Assembly (NCBI RefSeq): GCF_009914755.1
Contig: NC_060937.1
DNA from: the human T2T-CHM13v2.0 reference genome, Homo sapiens
Length of the DNA stretch: 64,000 bases
Direction: 5' to 3' (one strand)
Below, piece after piece: positions 41,060 to 50,475 of the stretch (position 1 is the first letter of the stretch; every line of letters starts with the position of its first letter). Under the pieces are notes generated by a model. The model had not been told where the DNA came from and did no database searches. It saw only the letters and a program-made list of their open reading frames with translations. The position numbers and the translations under genes are program-made.

Positions 41060-41675
41060 CCTTCTCTCTTTTAATTGGCTTTGCTGGAATCATTTCCAAT
41101 AAGAAATCTAAGATTACACATTTTAAAAAGCCTCAAGCGCAGCTAAGGATTTATCTGTGCCTACAGATACCTGTATGAATTGAATGTATTCTTCCCTTTT
41201 CAAGGTCCCAAGAAAATTTGAAATCCCTGGTCCTATCAGAGAGTGACATTCTTTACTTATGACAGGTCAGGACCTTGTAAAGGACAAGATATGGGGCCAA
41301 TATTTCCAAGGGGCCTTTACTGGCCCTATAGGTAAGCCTCATTTTCTCAAGGTAATCTGAAAATATGTCATTCTAGCCAAAGCCTTGGTAAAATAATGAG
41401 TGACTCCAATTATGCCCTATTATAAAAGAAAACAGATTCCTATTGAACTTCTGCAAATAACTATATTGCCATAAACTAATAATAATTGCATATAGTTTCC
41501 AAATTTGGGAGAAATTAGATAGAGAGAAAAGAATTATGCTTTAAATTTTGCTCACTAGAGTATACTTCACTAAATTGTATAAAGCTATAAATAGTTTGAA
41601 AGAAAAAATATTTTCTTTACTGAAAAACAAAACAAAAGGAATCAGCAAATGTTTTAAACAAAAAGTCATAAAAGA

Positions 41676-42180
41676 TTATTTTACTCTTCTGTTAGTTCAG
41701 TCTCTGCAATTGACTCCTGTTCTGCTCTATATTGGATCAAAAATCCTCATGAATACATCAGCTCCATGAGAGCCCTGGAAAATTTTCTGTCTATTCCAAC
41801 GTTACAATCTCTAAAATTACCAGAAACCTATATTTAACAGTACTCCTTAGACTTCTATAGCTGATTATAAACTGCCTTATTAAGGGATTAAAGTAAAATG
41901 TCTTAGAACAGCTATAGTTAAAGATACAATTGACAAGGAAATTTAGTTACTTCTGTGTCATACAACTATTTTACATGATAATAATAATTACTATTGATAA
42001 CATATACTAAAACATATTAGAGTCACAGGAATCTCATATAATCTTGTAATAAATACTACTAACACATTTATATAAATGTAATCCAAAGATGGTTAAACAT
42101 CATTTTATATTTGACAATGCTTTCTATATGATTTTATTACATCAAATAAGCCAAATATTTATTTTTGGACTTCAAGGGAC
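41676..42180 (+). repeat. ~505-bp direct repeat, left copy (flanks the provirus)
   Basis: Aligns end to end with 49973-50475; about 21 substitutions and 2 small indels by manual count. Confidence 0.97.
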
Positions 42181-42388
42181 TGATTAATCCTTAATCCCAT
42201 CTGCCCTAAGAACAAAGAGCCTGTAAACCAATAAATTGGGTGGAGCCCGGGAGCTCTGGGCTATGAGCAAGCCACCAACTCTGGTCCCCTGGACCCACCT
42301 TTTAAATGGTTATTCTGTCTCTTTCTAACTCTTGTCTCTGCCAGACTTGGGATACCTGCTGGGTGGTATGGGGCTGGTTTCCCCAACA
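42179..42388 (+). mobile_element. Truncated 5' LTR (LTR14C-like), 3' part only
   Basis: Matches 49741-49972 of the 3' LTR; AATAAA at 42230; ends CCCCAACA. Confidence 0.93.
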
Positions 42389-42390
42389 TC

Positions 42391-42408
42391 TGGTGCCCAA
42401 CGTGGGGC
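42391..42408 (+). promoter_or_regulatory. Primer binding site, tRNA-Lys(CUU)
   Basis: TGGTGCCCAACGTGGGGC, one C>T from TGGCGCCCAACGTGGGGC, 2 nt after the LTR end. Confidence 0.93.
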
Positions 42409-42559
42409 TCCCCATAAACTCTACAAATAATCAGGTGAAGAAATACCAGAGCATGGAAAGTGGAGGACGACTGACGAAGGATGCTTGAGTACGTTTTTCA
42501 CTTCATGCTCTATGGGTAAGTAGGGCCCTCAGAGAATTCCAGGGTAACCTCAGGAAAAT

Positions 42560-44428
42560 ATGGGTCAGGCTGAAGGTAAGTTTGCTAATTATTTAAGCCT
42601 GGTGCAGCAGTTATTGCACCGCAGGGGGTGGTAATTGTGAGTACCCAAAATCTCACATCTTTGTTCCATCTCATAGAAAAGTATTCTCCTTGGTTCCTGG
42701 AATACAGAACCATGAATGTAAAAGATTGGGACAAGGTCAGAACAGACTTAAAACGAGCACAGTAAGAGGGCCATGATATTCCCTTCTCCACTTGGTCTGT
42801 GTGATCGGCAATTAAAACAGCATTGGAGCCCTTCCACACTGAGAAGGAGGATGAGGAGTTTCAGGATGACAGAAAAGTTTAATAATCGGGAGTCTGATGA
42901 TCAGCAAAGTGAACCATCACAGTCTAGTTTAAAAAAGGGGGAGAAACGGGAAGCTATATATGCTAACCTCCAAAAACTTATCAAAGAAACAGTTCCACCT
43001 ACTGCAGAAACAGTGCCACCTACTGCGCCTTTAGGGGAAGGTCCAGAATGGCCACTCCCACCTCAGCCTTATGAATTTTTGGAACAGGAGCCTGAGACGC
43101 GGCTTGCCACTCCCATTGTTGCATGCCCCACCATTAACTATGGTGAAGGAAAGCTTCAGGCTTGCCCAACAGCCAGTTACGGTGAGGGAATGATCCAGGC
43201 TTGTCCACCTGTTAATTATGGTAGAAGAATGCTGCAAGCTGGCCCAAATACAAATTATGATGCAGGGATAATCCAGGCATCCATTCACCAGGCACGAGAA
43301 ATGGGGGATTTGGATGGTTGGCAGTTTCTGGTAATTATTTCGCCAGCTGAGAAGCCTGGAGAACATGCTCAAGCATGCTGGTAGCCATTTCCTTTTAAAA
43401 TATTAAAAGACTTAAAGCAAGCAATTGGACAATATGGGCCAGATTCTCCTTGTGTTCATTCCTTGTTACAATCTGTGACTTATAACCGGCGTTTAAAACC
43501 CATGGATTGGGAGTCATTAGCCTGATCAACCCTGTCCCCCTCTCAATTTCTCCAATTTAAAACCTGGTGGATGGACGAATCAACAAATCAGGCATGCAGA
43601 AATGCTCAAGCCCAAACTCCCGTTAATATCACATCTGATCAACTGCTTGGAATTGGACAGGCATGGGGTACTCTAAATCAACAGATGGTAATGGGTGATG
43701 AGGCTGCTGATCAGCTCAGAACTATATGCCTAAGAGCCTGGGAAAAAATTCACTACCCTGGTACTACTTATCCTTCTTTTAACTCAGTTCGACAGGGTCC
43801 AAGTGAGCCTTATCCAGATTTTATCACCCATTTGCAAGATGCGGCTCAAAAGGCTATTTTGGATTCTCATGCCAGGTAAGTGATCATTCAGCTGCTTGCT
43901 TATGAAAATGCAAATACATAATGTCAGGCAGCAATTAGACCTATTAAGGGAAAGGCAGATCTAAATGAGGAAAAAACATTAAGTGAATACATTAAAACCT
44001 GTGATGGCATTGGGGGGCACTTATAAGGCCAGTCTCCTTGCTCAGGCAATGGCTGGACTAAGGGTAACAAAAAACACATGAGTGTTCCCTGGATCTTGCT
44101 ATAATTGTGGAGAGATAGGACATACGAAGAGTGTACAAAGAGCCAAAAAAGGCAAAACTCAGGAGGAAAAAGCAGCGAACCAGGTACCTGTCCTAGATGT
44201 AAGAAAGGAAAACACTGAGCTAATCAATGTCATTCAAAGTTTGATAATAGCAGACAGCCCTTGCCGGGAAACAGACAGAGGGGCCAGCCCCAAGCTCTGA
44301 TTCAAAACGGGGCATTCCCAATTCAGGACAGGACATCCCTGACTCCAAACAGAGTGTTCCTGGCACAGTCTATCCCTGTACAAATGTACAGCAATTGTCC
44401 TCCTCCACAGCTAAAGGCAGGGCAGTAG
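42560..44428 (+). pseudogene. gag: HERV-K gag (MA, CA, NC), disrupted
   Basis: MGQAEGKFANYLSL N-terminus; PPTAP; MHR-like VRQGPSEPYPDFITHL; two CCHC-type knuckles (CYNCGEIGH, CPRCKKGKH); ends NCPPPQLKAGQ*; several stops and frameshifts. Confidence 0.92.
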
Positions 44429-44810
44429 ATTTATGCTGTACCAAAGCTGTATCCCTCCATCCTGGGGAGCCTCCTAGGAAGGTCCCAACGGGAGTTTACA
44501 GCCCATTGCCAAATGGCATGGTGGGACTTACACTGAGAAGGTCCAGCTTAAACTTAAAGGGAATTCAAGCACATACTGGAGTAGTACTTACATACTGATT
44601 CTTGTTAACTTATGGGGGAGAGATCTGCTTCAGCAATGGGGCACAGAAATTTCAATCCCTTCTCCCTGGTATGGTGAAGCTCATCAAAAAATAATGTCAA
44701 ACATGGGCTATATTCCTGGAAAAGGCCTAGGAAAACAGGAGACGGGCATTATTGGACCCATACAGGTTACTGTAAAAAATGACCAAAAAGGATTAGGTTA
44801 CCATTTTTAG
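44266..44810 (+). pseudogene. pro: HERV-K pro (dUTPase-protease-G-patch) with internal deletion
   Basis: GGGAAAC slippery site at 44266; dUTPase motifs AVDL, VPTG, RSSL, HTGVV; jumps at ~44586 to NLWGRDLL and G-patch MGYIPGKGLGK. Confidence 0.88.
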
Positions 44811-47431
44811 GGGTAGTCATTGTTGGGCCTCCAAGTCCTATTCCCTTAAAATGGAAGACGCAAAATCCTGTTTGGGTTGAGCAGTGGTTGCTTTCTCAGG
44901 AAAAATTGGGGGCCTTACAGGAATTAGTCAAAGAGCAATTAAACAAATGAAACATTGAGCCAACATTTTCTCCATGGAATTCGCCAATGTTTGTAATAAA
45001 GAAAAAAGCTGGCAGATGGGACATGCTAAGTGACTTACAAGTGGTCAATGCAGTCATCCAGCTGATGGGGGCCCTGCAGCTGGGGCTTCCTTCCCCCACC
45101 ATGATTCCTAGAGACTGGCCATTAATAATTATAGATGTGAAGGACTGCTTTTGAAGTATTCCTCTAGCAGAGTCTGATTTTGAGAAATTTGCTTTTACTA
45201 TTCCTGCCGTGAACAACAAGGAACCAGTAGCCAGATATCATTGGAAAGTCCTGACACAGGGCATGTTGAATAGTCCTACTATTTGTCAAACTTTTGTGGG
45301 GAAGGCTATTCAACCTGTGAGAGATCAGTTTCCCAATTCGTATATCATTCATTATATGGATGACATATTGTGTGCGGCCGAAAATCGAGACCGACTTATC
45401 CAGTGTTATTCATATTTACAGGAGGTGGTAGCCAATGCTGGGTTGCTCATAGCACCAGATAAAATTCAAATGGCCACTCATTTCCAATATTGGAGAATGC
45501 AGGTTCAGGAAAGGGCAATTAAACCCCAAAAGGTTCAAATTCAAAAAGACTCTCTGAAAACTTTAAATGATTTTCAAAAATTATTAGGGGATATCAATTG
45601 GATTCAACCTACTTTGGGAATCCCTACCTATGCTATGTCTAATCTGTTCTCTATTTAAGAGGAGACCCTGCTCTCAATAGTAAATGAGAACTGACTCCTG
45701 AAGCTGCCAAAGAATTACAAATGATTGAAGAAAAAAATACAACAGGCCCAGGTTAATAGAATAGACTCAAGTTTACCATTACAGTTCATTGTGTTCCCTA
45801 CTCTCCATTCTCCTACAGGGGTTATAATTCAGAGTGAAGACTTAGTTGAATGGTCTTTTCTGCCTCACAATACTGTTAGAACACTCACAGTATACTTGGA
45901 TCAGATGGCAATCTTGATTGGGCAAGCTCACCTTAGAGTTGTTAAACTTTGTGGCTCAGATCCAGATAAGATTATAGTTCCAAAGATTAAAAATCAGATT
46001 TGGCAAGCCTTTGTTAATTCGGTCGATTGGCAAATAAATTTAGCTGGATTCATTGGAGTTATTGACAATCATTATTCAAAAAACAAACTTTTTCAGTTTT
46101 TAAAGCTAACAACATGGGTCCTTCCAAAAATTACCCCTAGTGCTCCATTGGAAGGAGCAGTTAACTGTGTTTACAGATGGATCTAGCAATGGAAAAGCAG
46201 CTTATGTAGGACTCAAAAACAGAATTATTCACACTGACTTTCAATCAGCACAGAGGGCTGAATTAGAGGCAGTTATAGCTGTGTTAGAAGACTTTAAGCA
46301 ACCTGTAAAGATTGTCTCTGATTCAGCTTATGTTGTTCAAGCCACTCAATATATAGAAACTACACTCATTAAATATCTTGTGGATGAACAACTCTATCAG
46401 CTGTTTTCTTCTTTACAAAAGGCAGTGCATGATCGCTGTTTTCCTTTCTATATTATGCACATTCAAGCAAACACTAATCTTCCTGGGCCCTTGTAAGGGA
46501 TAACGATCAAGCTGATTTACTAGTTTCCACTATGCTTACTAATGCCCAAGATTTTCACTCCCGAACACATGTTAATGCAGCAGGACTTAAACAAAAATAC
46601 CAGATTACTTGGAGACAGGCAAAGGACATTTTGCAACATTGCCTTCAGTGCCAGGTACTACAACTGCCACATGAAGGGACTGGTGTTAACCCATGGGGAT
46701 TAACCCACAATATGTTGTGGCAAATGGACATAACCTACGTACCTTCATTCAGGAAACTTTCATACGTCCATGTTACTATAGATACCTTTTCTCATTTTGT
46801 ATTGGCAACTTGCCAAACAGGTTAGGTGGTTGCTCATATTAAAAGACATTTACTTTCCTGTTTCGCTGCCATGGGCATCCCACAAAAGATTAAAACAGAC
46901 AATGGCCCAGGCTACTGCAGTAAATCTTTACAAGTGTTCCTTCAACAATGGCACATTGAGCACAGTACTGGAATACCCTATAATTCTCAAGGCCAAGCCA
47001 TTGTTGAACAGGCTAATCGAACCCTAAAATCTCAATTACAAAAACAAAAGACAGAGGGGGGAACCAGAGAATACTCTACTCCCCATATGCAGATACAATT
47101 GGCTCTTATCACTTTAAATTTTTTGAATTTATCTAGAGATCAGGTTACAACGGCAGCAAAGCAGCATTTGACAGGGCAAAAAATAAATTCTCATGAGGGA
47201 AAACATGTGTGGTGGAAGGATGTCAGAACCAAAACCTGGGAAAAAGGCAAAATCATTACAAGGGGTCAAGGGTTTGCTTGTATCTCACCAGGAGAGAATC
47301 AGCTTCCTGTCTGGGTACCCACAAGACATCTTAAGCTGTGCCATGAGCCAGAATCCAAGGAAGAGGAAAAGACCTCGGAACATCCCTGCACCCCCAGTTC
47401 GTCAGATGGCTCAGAAGAACGTCTCTGTTGA
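44790..47431 (+). pseudogene. pol: HERV-K pol (RT, RNase H, integrase), disrupted
   Basis: [13 protein letters not shown]; YMDD at 45353; RNase H TDGSSNG; integrase HHCC and WQMD/KTDNG/IVE; stops and frameshifts. Confidence 0.95.
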
Positions 47432-49360
47432 GCAGATGGAAACTGTAAAGCTCGCCAAGCAACTCCACCGACCTGGGGGCAGATGAAGAGAGTAGCTCCC
47501 ATTGCAGAAGAGAACCTGAGGTCTCAGAACAAGCCACTGACCATCAGTAATCTAATGGTAGCTATGATGGCAGTAATCTCCCTGGCAGTGAGTCTCGCCG
47601 TAGCTGAGACAGATCAAAATTACACTTATTGGCCGTACGTTCCATTCCCACCACTGATTAGGCCTGTTACATGGTTAGACTCCCCGGTGGAGGTTTATGT
47701 TAATGATAGTGTCTGGATGCCTGGACCAACAGATAAACGAGGTCCTACTCATCCAGAGGAGGAAGGAATGTTAATGAATGTTTCCATTGGTTATCACTTT
47801 CCTCCCATCTGCCTAGGGCTGGCAGCAGGATGTTTAAATTATAATAAACAAAGTTGAATGGTTTATGTCCCTGCACATAATGGATCAAAAGCCTCTATTC
47901 ATGCAATCAGTGGAAGAACATTTCAATCTTGGGACACTACAAAATACCTTGAGCACAGCTATGTTATGACACATCACCAGATTAATAAATTTAAACCTAA
48001 TAAAAAGCCCTGCCTTAGGCAGGCCACTAAATTGTCTGGAAAGCTAGAGGGGCTAACCTGGGAAGATTGTATTGCAAACAGCGCTGTTGTACTGCAAAAT
48101 AATTCCTATGGAATCATCATTGATTGGGCCCCTAGGGGACGCTTTGCAGTAAATTGTACTGGACAGCATGAAGATTGCAGAGAGATTCCTTTTGCAAATG
48201 ACTACCCAGATAATGCACCAAAATTATATAGAAGAATTGAAACAAATTACTCTATTAAGTGGGAGGAGAACGGTATGGCTCTTCCAAGACCGAAAATGAT
48301 TGATCCAATTATAAGTCCAGAACATCCAGAACTATGGAAATCAATGATGGCTCAAACCCCAATTCGGATTTGGAAAGGAGAAAATAAAACAGAAACCCAT
48401 AGTAAAAAACTTCGATTTGTTGTAGCCATGACCTCTAATCGGACAGTCCCATTGCAGAGTTGTGTTAAACCTCCTTTTAGGTTGGCAGTGGAAAAAATTA
48501 ATATCCTACCTGACTCTCAAACCATATCATGCCTCAATGGTCATCTTTTTTACCTGCATTAATTCTACCTTTAATAAAGATAATAACATTTTACTGGTTA
48601 AGTCCTGAGAAGGAATTTGGATACCTGTTTCCCTCAATAGACCTTGGGAGGCCTCTCCTTCCATACATATTATCACTGAAGTACTAAAAGGAATACTTAA
48701 TAGATCAAAGAGATTCATATTTACTTTAATAGCTGTGATCCTGGGCCTTATAGCTGTTACAGCTACTGCTGCTGCTGCTGTTGCTTTGCACTCTTCTATT
48801 CAAACTGCAGGCTTTGTGGATAGTTGGCAGAAAAATTCTTCTAAGCTTTGGAATTCCCAAAGCCAAATAGATCAAAAATTGGCAAATCAAATTAATGATC
48901 TCTGTCAAACAGTAATTTGGATGGGAGATTGGATTATGAATTTGGAGCATAGAATTCAAATGCAATGTGATTGGAATACTTCTGATTTTTGTATTACTCA
49001 TAGCTCCTATAATGCCACTGAGCACCATTGGGCGATGATTAGACATCACCTGCAAGGAAAAGAAGATAATTTAACATTAGATATTGCTAAACTGAAGAAA
49101 ACAAGTTTTTGAGGCATCTCAGGCTCATCTCACCCTGTTGCCTGGAGCTGACATTCTTGCTGGAGCCGCTGATGGCCTTTCTAATACCAATCCTTTAAAG
49201 TGGAGTAAAACCATAGGTAGATCAACAATTGCAAATTTTATTTTGGTTTGTGTCTGTTTATGCTGTTTGTTTTTAGTCTACAAATGCGGACAGCGCCTTG
49301 GGAGAGAAGCCAGATACCGTGAACGAGCCATGGCATAGCAATGGTGGTTATTAATTTAAA
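47343..49360 (+). pseudogene. env: HERV-K env (signal peptide, SU, TM), disrupted
   Basis: [18 protein letters not shown]; RSKR cleavage site at 48702-48713; fusion peptide [19 protein letters not shown]; LANQINDL; CDWNTSDFC. Confidence 0.92.
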
Positions 49361-49374
49361 AAAAAAAAAAAGAC

Positions 49375-49387
49375 AAAAAAGGGGGAC
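49375..49387 (+). other. Polypurine tract
   Basis: AAAAAAGGGGGA just before the TG of the 3' LTR. Confidence 0.9.
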
Positions 49388-49388
49388 A

Positions 49389-49972
49389 TGTGGGAAAGAG
49401 AGTTTCTGGGATGCCAGTTGAGTTGGTCTCCCCTGTGTGAGACACCCATGGGAAGCCATGGGCAGCCTCTGAGGAGAAAAGTCTCCTTATTGCCTTCATG
49501 TCTTTATGCCCCAAGAACATAACCGCTCAGCGGCATTCCACAGGTTGCTCAGGGAGATAAAACTCCCTTGAAGCAGTGAAGTATAATCAAACATCTTGGC
49601 TCCTCCTGAAACCATTCCCACCCATTTCATTCCCAATAAGTTAAAGATCTTAAGTAGTTTAGACACACGCCTTTGCTCAAGGAAATTCACAGAAACTGCC
49701 ACTGCTATACATCTTATTGAATGACTCAGAGTTCTCCTTCACTGATTAATCCTTTTCCTCATCCCTTCCTCCCCCTCCCATCTGCCCTAAGAACAAAGAG
49801 CTTGTAAACCAATAAATTAGGGGGATTCCTGAGAGCTCTGGGCCATGAGCAAGCCTCTAATGCTCCAGTTCCCTGGACCCACCTTTTAAATGCTTATTCT
49901 GTCTTTTTCTAACTCCTTTGTCTCTGCCAGACTCAAGGTACCCACTGTGGTGTGGGGCTGGTTTCCCCAACA
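49389..49972 (+). mobile_element. Complete 3' LTR, 584 bp (LTR14C-like; HERVK14C/HML-9)
   Basis: TGTGGGAAAGAGAG...TTTCCCCAACA; AATAAA at 49811; LTR14B is a possible alternative name. Confidence 0.88.
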
Positions 49973-50475
49973 TTATTTTACTCTTTTGTTAGTTCAGTCT
50001 CTGCAATTGATTCCTGTTCTGCTCGATATTGGATCAAAAATCCTCATGAATACGTCAGCTCTCCATGAGAGCCCTGGAAAATTTTCTGTCTATTCCAATG
50101 TTACAATCTCTAAAATTATGAGAAACCTATATTTAACAGTGATCCTTAGACTTCTATAGCTGGTTATAAACTGCCTTGTTAAAGGATTAAATTAAAATGT
50201 CTTAGAACAGCTATAGTTAAAGATACAATTGACAAGGAAATTTAGTTCTGTGTCATTCAACTATTTTACATAATAATTATAATTACTATTGATAACATAT
50301 ACTAAGACATATTAGAGTCACAGGAATCTCATATAATCTTGCAATAAATACTACTAACACATTTATATAAATATAATCCAAAGATGGTTAAACATCATTT
50401 TATATTTGACAATGCTTCCTATATGATTTTATTACATCAAATAAGCCAAACATTTATTTTTGGACTTCAAGGGAC
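49973..50475 (+). repeat. ~503-bp direct repeat, right copy
   Basis: Starts right after the LTR terminal CA and ends cttcaagggac like the left copy. Confidence 0.97.

What the first reader, a model, noticed from the sequence alone, without database searches (positions are those of the whole stretch)
41676..50475. HERV-K provirus with a ~505-bp target duplication and one truncated LTR: fossil one-ended integration
Seen: the 3' LTR ends at its normal CA (49972) and is followed by host DNA (49973-50475) that repeats the ~505 bp just left of the provirus (41676-42180). The 5' LTR lacks its first ~352 bp and joins host DNA through a 2-nt overlap (AC). Known: betaretroviral integrases make 5-6 bp TSDs. 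Proviruses with one normal end, one truncated end and a large host duplication arise experimentally when one viral end is a poor integrase substrate (mutant ASLV/HIV ends, suboptimal integrase inhibitor). Inference: integrase joined only the U5 end of a cDNA with an incomplete left end, perhaps from unfinished strand-displacement synthesis, and host repair joined the other end ~505 bp away. An alternative is later illegitimate recombination between an empty and a filled allele.
Basis: partly seen in the sequence, partly recalled or inferred. Interest (0 to 1): 0.85.

Follow-up and report, generated by a model that had tools for sequence, protein, structure and literature searches.

The report
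Ancient provirus with 505-bp flank duplication
An old HERV-K (HML-9) provirus on chromosome 13 has one normal end, one cut-short end and a 505-base copy of the same host DNA on each side, which is the footprint of a faulty integration of a kind already described for younger HERV-K copies.

Summary
Host segment 41676-42180 is repeated at 49973-50475: 480 of 501 aligned bases match, with 6 gap columns. Between the copies lies a provirus. Its 3' LTR (49389-49972) ends at the normal CA. Its 5' LTR (42181-42388) lacks the first 352-354 bp and joins host DNA with a 2-nt AC overlap.

The provirus is the catalogued HERV-K(HML-9) 13q31.1 locus. Published tables show the same LTR truncation in chimpanzee. 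Related copies of the host repeat elsewhere in the genome carry the segment once, so the site originally held one copy.

The LTR pair looks older than the flank pair (11.2% against 4.2%). Most of that excess lies at CpG sites. With these masked the gap is 7.1% against 3.6% (p = 0.06).

The best reading (about 0.65) is an aberrant integration. The U5 end was joined normally. The truncated U3 end was joined by host repair 505 bp away.

The kind is already in print for HML-2, with flank duplications of 61-450 bp. I confirmed the mirror-image 450-bp case at 21q21.1 in this genome.

Rival histories give the same sequence, and I had no other primate genomes to test them. This is a new member of a known kind, of modest interest.

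The parts
41676..42180 (+). Left copy (A) of the duplicated host segment, 505 bp. It is continuous with the upstream host repeat.
   Evidence: In one search, 34 of 41 related copies elsewhere in the genome align straight across the upstream boundary at 41675/41676.
42179..42180 (+). AC overlap at the aberrant junction. It could be read as the end of A or as 3' LTR positions 353-354.
   Evidence: A' reads GGGAC then CTAC; the 3' LTR reads TTCAC then TGATTAATCC.
42181..42388 (+). Truncated 5' LTR, 208 bp. It corresponds to 3' LTR positions 355-584 and carries AATAAA at 42230-42235.
   Evidence: 172/200 identical. (23 differences in 206 aligned columns).
42184..42197 (+). Tandem TTAATCC-TTAATCC. 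The second 7-mer stands where the 3' LTR and all 39 family copies have about 26 nt. This complex indel lies 10 nt inside the junction.
   Evidence: alignment: present in 0 of 39 family LTRs and absent from the 3' LTR.
42389..42408 (+). TC spacer (42389-42390) and 18-nt primer binding site (42391-42408).
   Evidence: The same TC-TGG arrangement follows 4 of 5 family 5' LTRs. That the site matches tRNA-Lys is recalled, not tested.
42409..49388 (+). Internal region with broken gag, pro, pol and env reading frames, ending in the polypurine tract just before 49389.
   Evidence: Gag_p24 43526-43879; dUTPase and G-patch 44251-44810; RVT 45155-45658; RNase H 46110-46496; integrase 46478-47431; HERV-K_env_2 47432-48562; GP41 48609-49112. 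The published catalogue gives pro as 52% present.
49389..49972 (+). Complete 3' LTR, 584 bp (LTR14C type), TG...CA. It has TATACA at 49706-49711 and AATAAA at 49811-49816.
   Evidence: 89-93% identity to 40 other genomic copies..
49971..49974 (+). Canonical right junction CA|TT. The viral TC dinucleotide that follows U5 in the 5' LTR is absent here. The TT is host sequence, because the left copy reads GA|TT at the same place.
49973..50475 (+). Right copy (A') of the duplicated host segment, 503 bp. It is continuous with the downstream host repeat.
   Evidence: In one search, 39 of 40 related copies align straight across the boundary at 50475/50476.

Best explanation
This is the footprint of an aberrant, effectively one-ended retroviral integration in the germ line of an ape ancestor.

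The U5 end of an HML-9 viral DNA was processed to CA and joined to host DNA at ...AAAAGA^TTATTTTAC... in the usual way. The U3 end did not take part in a concerted reaction. It lost about 352 bp and was joined by host repair, with a 2-nt AC overlap, to the same chromosome 505 bp to the right of the first joint. Filling in the staggered structure left one copy of the 505 bp on each side.

Shown here:
- the anatomy;
- the single-copy ancestral site;
- the canonical right end;
- the non-canonical left end.

Inferred:
- that integrase made the right joint;
- that host enzymes made the left joint;
- that both joints belong to one event.
For: 1. One canonical end. The 3' LTR ends in CA, the viral TC dinucleotide is removed, and host sequence follows directly.
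2. The other end is truncated by 352-354 bp and has a 2-nt overlap.
3. The site once held one copy of the segment. Six of 6 related copies cover upstream flank, A and downstream flank in a single HSP. In the genome searches, 34 of 41 and 39 of 40 related copies cross the two boundaries. A and A' also share a private 20-nt deletion.
4. The family norm is 5-6 bp. None of 29 solo LTRs and 4 provirus pairs examined has a long repeat abutting its LTRs.
5. The differences are spread evenly along the 505 bp and are derived on both sides (7 in A, 11 in A', 3 ambiguous). LTR differences are likewise derived in both LTRs (12, 9, 2 ambiguous). This is as expected for pairs that started identical.
6. With CpG columns masked, the LTR pair (13/184) and the flank pair (18/495) do not differ significantly (p = 0.064, or 0.20 without two indel-adjacent sites).
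7. Experimental aberrant integrants have this same anatomy and are explained by priming on nearby host DNA through short homology (PMC5041404 Discussion passages).
8. Natural precedents exist. Eight of 622 HML-2 LTR sites have flank duplications over 10 bp, up to 450 bp (PMC5488345 Table 2). I confirmed the 21q21.1 case in this genome: 450/450 identical, intact U3 end, 3' LTR cut after 257 bp.
9. The published table for the chimpanzee orthologue gives the same 5' LTR fraction, 35.95% against 35.78% in human.
Against: 1. Taken raw, the LTR pair is 2.7 times more diverged than the flank pair (23/206 against 21/501, p = 0.0009). After CpG masking it is still nominally about 2 times higher. That would also fit a duplication younger than the provirus.
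2. At least three other histories end in the identical sequence (see rivals).
3. No orthologous empty site, and no carrier species other than chimpanzee (and that only from a published table), could be examined.
4. An exact CA end can also arise if a 3'-processed end is joined by host enzymes, so the right joint alone does not prove strand transfer by integrase.
5. Such events are rare with unimpaired integrase: 0 of 99 and 0 of 85 proviruses with a wild-type HIV vector (PMC5041404).
Confidence: 0.65

Rival explanations
1. Uncoupled integration followed by a later deletion. Both viral ends were joined intact, 505 bp or more apart, as in HML-2 solo LTRs that have long duplications. An unrelated deletion then removed the first ~352 bp of the 5' LTR together with the adjacent end of the left host copy.
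For: HML-2 loci with long duplications and apparently intact ends are in print, for example 7p21.2 (250 bp) and the 4q32.1 provirus (206 bp) (PMC5488345 Table 2). A 2-nt overlap is also typical of ordinary deletions.
Against: It needs two rare events at one spot. Truncation of the aberrant end is itself a usual feature of one-ended events (PMC5041404). The natural 21q21.1 and 6p25.2 cases are also truncated.
Confidence: 0.1
2. Normal integration with a 5-6 bp duplication, followed by one non-homologous unequal exchange in a heterozygote while the insertion was still polymorphic. The breakpoints were the empty allele 505 bp right of the site and the filled allele at LTR position ~353.
For: A single exchange gives exactly this sequence. 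Its age prediction is the same as for an aberrant integration.
Against: It needs a rare germ-line rearrangement at this one locus within the short polymorphic window. In contrast, about 1% of HML-2 sites carry long flank duplications (8 of 622). Nothing in the sequence specifically calls for it.
Confidence: 0.08
3. A later replication-based rearrangement, long after fixation. A nascent strand skipped the provirus through its 5-6 bp target duplication, copied the 505 bp, then switched back into the 5' LTR at AC.
For: The flank pair is nominally younger than the LTR pair: 3.6% against 7.1% at non-CpG sites, and 4.2% against 11.2% overall. The complex 7-nt templated-looking indel 10 nt inside the junction is a typical template-switch scar.
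Against: It needs two switches, each over about 8 kb. The age difference is not significant once CpG sites are masked (p = 0.06-0.2). The flank value lies within the family's non-CpG LTR range for whole LTRs (24/542 to 44/539).
Confidence: 0.07
4. Integrase-independent capture of viral DNA at a chromosome break, both ends joined by host repair.
For: The left end is non-canonical. A processed CA end could be joined by host enzymes.
Against: Capture at a break usually deletes a few host bases and does not duplicate 505 bp (general knowledge of end joining, not tested here). The right end is exact to the base.
Confidence: 0.05
5. Pre-existing tandem duplication of the host segment ('pseudo-TSD'), or an assembly artefact.
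For: Pseudo-TSD models are discussed for HML-2 (PMC5488345 Discussion).
Against: Six of 6 related copies have one copy of the segment. The provirus would have had to land exactly at the joint between the two copies, and the deletion to stop exactly there. The flank pair is no older than the LTR pair. The copies differ by 4.2%, and hg38 reports a provirus of the same length.
Confidence: 0.02

Closest known systems
HERV-K(HML-2) 21q21.1 provirus with a 450-bp flank duplication (Macfarlane & Badge 2015, PMC4422153; Kahyo et al. 2017, PMC5488345)
   Same: One intact viral end, one truncated LTR, and a host duplication of several hundred bp abutting both ends. I verified this in the same genome. 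The 450/450 identical direct repeat abuts a 257-bp stump of the 3' LTR on one side and the intact start of the 5' LTR on the other.
   Different: It is the mirror image: the U3 end is intact and the U5 end is missing. There is no overlap at its aberrant junction. It is human-specific and young (0 mismatches), and it belongs to HML-2. The locus here is HML-9, shared with chimpanzee, 4.2% diverged, and slightly longer (505 bp).
HML-2 6p25.2 truncated provirus (111-bp duplication) and 7p21.2 solo LTR (250 bp), both with sequenced pre-integration alleles (Kahyo et al. 2017)
   Same: Long duplication of a segment that is single-copy in the empty allele. 6p25.2 is also truncated and shared among great apes (Discussion section and Table 2).
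   Different: For those loci the empty allele was sequenced directly. Here the single-copy state is inferred only from related repeat copies.
Experimental aberrant integrants of ASLV vectors with a poor end, and of HIV-1 vectors under suboptimal integrase inhibitor or with weakened integrase (Varadarajan et al. 2016, PMC5041404, and work cited there)
   Same: One normal junction; the other end often truncated; short homology at the aberrant junction; host duplications of hundreds to thousands of bp (passages).
   Different: Those are somatic events in cultured cells with a known cause. Here the cause of the one-endedness is unknown and the event is a fixed germ-line fossil. The primary ASLV paper and the 2013 HIV paper were not held, so I saw them only as cited.

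Membership tests
HERV-K(HML-9) (LTR14C / HERVK14C) | Betaretrovirus-like gene set with dUTPase and G-patch in pro, and a HERV-K-type env | tested here: met
   Gag_p24, dUTPase, G-patch, RVT_1, RNase_H, rve, HERV-K_env_2, GP41.
HERV-K(HML-9) (LTR14C / HERVK14C) | LTR of about 585 bp that groups with the LTRs of catalogued HML-9 loci | tested here: met
   89-93% identity to 40 genomic copies, including LTR pairs about 8 kb apart on C16, C2, C15 and C6, the chromosomes of catalogued HML-9 proviruses. PMC9178832 Table 1 lists 13q31.1 itself.
HERV-K(HML-9) (LTR14C / HERVK14C) | Primer binding site for tRNA-Lys | tested here: inconclusive
   An 18-nt site lies 2 nt after U5 and is shared with family 5' LTRs. 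Its match to tRNA-Lys is recalled and was not aligned here.
Aberrant (one-ended) retroviral integration with a long host duplication | One viral end canonical: ends in CA, terminal dinucleotide removed, host DNA follows directly | tested here: met
   CA|TT, with the viral TC absent.
Aberrant (one-ended) retroviral integration with a long host duplication | Other viral end non-canonical or truncated, often with short homology | tested here: met
   352-354 bp missing, with an AC overlap.
Aberrant (one-ended) retroviral integration with a long host duplication | Direct host repeat far longer than the family's 5-6 bp, abutting both viral ends | tested here: met
   505/503 bp, against 5-6 bp at 18 of 29 solo LTRs and 3 of 4 provirus pairs.
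Aberrant (one-ended) retroviral integration with a long host duplication | Pre-integration site holds the segment once | tested here: met
   Met indirectly: 6 of 6 related repeat copies are single-copy and contiguous. The true orthologous empty site could not be tested with these tools.
Aberrant (one-ended) retroviral integration with a long host duplication | Duplication as old as the provirus | tested here: inconclusive
   Non-CpG divergence is 7.1% (LTRs) against 3.6% (flanks), p = 0.064. Over all sites it is 11.2% against 4.2%, p = 0.0009.
Aberrant (one-ended) retroviral integration with a long host duplication | Same structure in every species that carries the provirus | not testable with these tools
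   Only a published table is available: the chimpanzee orthologue has 35.95% of the 5' LTR. It gives no information on the flanks.
LINE-mediated processed copy of an ERV transcript (as for HERV-W pseudogenes) | Starts at R, ends in R plus a poly(A) tail, with a short LINE-type duplication | tested here: not met
   The 3' LTR runs through U5 to CA with no poly(A) after it, and the duplication is 505 bp.

The most novel reading that the evidence does not exclude
The truncation may not be random trimming. The left end of the inserted DNA may mark the cap site of the viral RNA. On this reading the integrated molecule was an R-U5...U3-R-U5 reverse-transcription product whose minus strand stopped at the 5' end of the template and never acquired a U3 terminus, and so never had a left attachment site. 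That would explain why only U5 could be joined by integrase.

The lead is as follows. The junction lies 35-37 nt downstream of a TATACA that is kept in 31 of 39 family LTRs, and 68 nt upstream of AATAAA. This spacing would give an R of roughly 95 nt.

Against it: the motif was found after the fact; no transcription start is mapped for LTR14C (listing only); and none of the 14 other leader-bearing HML-9 loci starts there.
Probability: 0.1. Interest if true: 0.55.

Novelty: new member of a known kind. Interest (0 to 1): 0.35.

Why it matters
- It extends the record of natural aberrant integrations from young HML-2 copies to an older HERV-K group. At 505 bp it is slightly longer than the longest published case I found (450 bp).
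- A truncated LTR in an ERV catalogue need not be later decay. The HML-9 catalogue lists this locus with 35.78% of its 5' LTR and no LTR-based age.
- If the two repeat pairs arose in one event, the locus gives a rare internal comparison of how fast an LTR and plain flanking DNA diverge: 11.2% against 4.2%, with most of the excess at CpG sites. That bears on LTR-based dating.
- The two 505-bp copies could also recombine and delete the provirus, mimicking an empty allele. This caveat has already been raised for HML-2.

Tried and rejected
- Different LTR sources: rejected. I asked whether the 5' LTR stump comes from a different source than the 3' LTR. Differences are derived about equally in both (12, 9, 2 ambiguous). 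The pair's distance (11.2%) sits within their distances to 39 other copies (medians 10.7-12.1%), a star-like family.
- Gene conversion between the flank copies: no tract seen. The longest identical run is about 69 nt with 21 differences.
- Cap-site idea: no support. A genome search with a full 5' LTR plus leader found 15 leader-bearing loci. Eleven start at LTR position 1-3. Three Y-linked copies are split at about 254. Only 13q31.1 is truncated.
- Naming the host repeat: failed. Fifteen reading frames from both flanks gave no credible Pfam hit.
- Wider screen of older HERV-K proviruses for abutting flank repeats. Five of the 10 showed an LTR-sized repeat pair. None had a repeat abutting the outer LTR edges. 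One lies in satellite DNA and is uninformative. The sample is too small to give a rate.
- Papers not held: Flockerzi 2005 on HERV-K14C, Oh 2006 and Varadarajan 2013.
- Not seen in print: the 505-bp duplication at this locus. The term 'target site duplication' has 0 occurrences in PMC9178832, and searches found no such report. I did not open the supplements of the HML-9 papers, and they could hold it.
Full report
**The observation**

A BLAST of the region left of the provirus against the region right of it gives two alignments.
- The first is 483/511 identical and runs from the first base after the 3' LTR to ...GGGAC.
- The second is 172/200 identical and is the shared LTR part.

A MAFFT alignment with related copies gives 21 differences in 501 aligned columns plus 6 gap columns.

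The 3' LTR is 49389-49972 (584 bp, TGTGGG...CCCCAACA) and follows the polypurine tract. The 5' LTR is 42181-42388 and corresponds to positions 355-584 of the 3' LTR. The AC at 42179-42180 fits both the host segment and LTR positions 353-354.

**What the element is**

The reading-frame fragments carry Gag_p24, dUTPase, G-patch, RVT_1 with thumb, RNase H, integrase, HERV-K_env_2 and GP41.

The 3' LTR matches 40 other genomic copies at 89-93% (40 of 131 first-look candidates scored). Several of these lie in pairs about 8 kb apart.

A literature search identified the locus as HERV-K(HML-9) 13q31.1. PMC9178832 Tables 1, 3 and 4 (seen as passages) give these values:
- hg38 chr13:84869526-84877320, 7,795 bp;
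- 5' LTR 35.78% present;
- pro 52.2% present;
- LTR-based age 'NA'.

The chimpanzee catalogue lists the orthologue with 35.95% of the 5' LTR and 52.25% of pro (PMC11209481, passages). The truncation therefore predates the human-chimpanzee split.

**The ancestral site**

The 505 bp belongs to an old interspersed repeat, with more than 1,300 first-look candidates at about 70-88% identity. I could not name its family.
- 34 of 41 related copies align across the upstream boundary.
- 39 of 40 align across the downstream boundary.
- 6 of 6 fetched copies cover upstream flank, segment and downstream flank in one HSP.
- In the alignment all six have the segment once.

A and A' also share a 20-nt deletion that none of the six has. 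The site therefore held one copy, and the two copies here descend from it.

**The two junctions**

*Right junction.* In the 5' LTR, U5 is followed by TC and then the primer binding site. Four of 5 family 5' LTRs show the same arrangement. At the 3' junction the sequence is CA|TTATTTTAC, and the left copy reads ...AAAAGA|TTATTTTAC. The viral dinucleotide is therefore gone and host sequence starts at once, as after normal processing and joining.

*Left junction.* The host segment ends ...GGGAC and continues TGATTAATCC. The intact LTR reads ...TTCAC TGATTAATCC.

Ten nt inside the stump, about 26 nt of the LTR are replaced by a second copy of the preceding TTAATCC. This change is seen in 0 of 39 family copies. 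It may be a scar of the joining or a later indel. One indel near one junction is weak evidence either way.

**Family norm**

Among 29 solo-LTR candidates, 18 have an exact 5-6 bp duplication within 3 nt of the predicted edges. Most of the others miss by one base.

Three of 4 provirus pairs have matching 5-6 bp duplications; the 2p12 pair does not match.

None of these 33 loci has a long repeat abutting its LTR edges within 300 bp.

**Ages**

Taken raw, the LTR pair differs at 23 of 206 aligned sites (11.2%) and the flank pair at 21 of 501 (4.2%), Fisher p = 0.0009. This at first suggested a younger duplication.

Ten of the 23 LTR differences fall in 22 columns where 15% or more of family copies carry CpG. 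The masking was not identical for the two pairs: family CpG frequency for the LTRs, and CpG context in the two copies for the flanks. Outside masked columns the values are:

| Pair | Non-CpG differences | Rate |
|---|---|---|
| LTR pair | 13/184 | 7.1% |
| LTR pair, without the two sites beside the complex indel | 11/182 | 6.0% |
| Flank pair | 18/495 | 3.6% |

The corresponding p values are 0.064 and 0.20.

Four intact family proviruses give non-CpG LTR divergences of 24/542, 34/542, 24/533 and 44/539.

The data are therefore compatible with one event. They leave a nominal excess of up to twofold, which I report as evidence against my reading.

**Mechanism and precedent**

The Hughes laboratory's account is as follows (PMC5041404, passages from Background, Results and Discussion).
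- When only one end is inserted by integrase, host enzymes insert the other.
- That end is often truncated.
- A short homology is usual at the aberrant junction.
- The most common outcome is a host duplication of hundreds to thousands of bp.
- The proposed route is priming from the free viral 3' end on nearby host DNA, followed by recombination.
- With a wild-type vector they saw 0 of 99 and 0 of 85 aberrant proviruses. With weakened integrase or suboptimal drug they saw about 3-25%.

Natural cases are already in print.
- Macfarlane & Badge 2015 (PMC4422153, Discussion passages) list four HML-2 loci with aberrant target-site junctions: flank duplications of 250, 61 and 450 bp, and one 4-bp deletion. 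The 450-bp case is the 3'-truncated provirus at 21q21.1. They draw the same comparison with the vector experiments.
- Kahyo et al. 2017 (PMC5488345; abstract, Discussion section and Table 2) list 8 of 622 LTR5_Hs sites with flank duplications over 10 bp. They sequenced the empty alleles for the 250-bp and 111-bp cases. They also discuss 'pseudo-TSD' rearrangement models.

I located 21q21.1 in this genome through an env search and confirmed its anatomy. A 450/450 identical direct repeat abuts the intact start of the 5' LTR on one side and a 257-bp stump of the 3' LTR on the other. It is the mirror image of the locus studied here.

**Rivals**

Several other histories end in the same sequence:
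- an exchange between an empty and a filled allele;
- an uncoupled two-ended integration followed by a junction-spanning deletion;
- a later double template switch;
- capture of viral DNA at a chromosome break.

[quoted passage not shown] That ranking is inference, not test.

A pre-existing tandem duplication and an assembly artefact are disfavoured.

**Verdict**

The kind is known. This is a new, older and slightly longer example in a different HERV-K group.

Noticed in passing
L020 and L034 (G000:C2:82023179-82031797): The 2p12 HML-9 provirus has no matching short duplication. The left flank ends ...CACATTGC and the right flank starts TTATTTAT. The three other intact family proviruses have 5-6 bp matches. 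It could be a recombinant between two proviruses, or simple decay.
   Followed up: partly
G000:C24:22455292-22456778, 8884354-8885837, 22685521-22687008: Three Y-linked HML-9 5' LTRs are split at about LTR position 254, with roughly 300 bp between the two parts. This is probably one insertion copied by Y-chromosome duplications.
   Followed up: no
window 44366-49049, minus strand: According to the supplied annotation, three exons of the predicted lncRNA LOC105370290 (44366-44726, 47289-47472, 48725-49049) lie inside the provirus, antisense to it.
   Followed up: no
L067/L068 (G000:C10:39108967-39124467): A HERV-K env-bearing provirus sits inside an array with a period of about 171 bp (satellite-like). 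Only a 238-bp repeat pair is visible at LTR spacing.
   Followed up: no
L061/L062 (G000:C8:46953899-46969399): This provirus has a 1,100-bp LTR pair plus a 134-bp repeat. The repeat abuts the 3' LTR on its inner side but lies 113 bp upstream of the 5' LTR. This looks like an insertion within a longer 5' LTR and not a flank duplication.
   Followed up: partly
window 44251-44810: The pro region is only partly present. There is a partial dUTPase hit, the last 25 positions of the protease model, and an intact-looking G-patch. The catalogue gives 52% of pro, and the chimpanzee orthologue shows the same fraction.
   Followed up: no
L049/L050 (G000:C21:16920521-16929724): The HML-2 21q21.1 aberrant junction shows no overlap between host and LTR. 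The locus studied here has 2 nt.
   Followed up: yes
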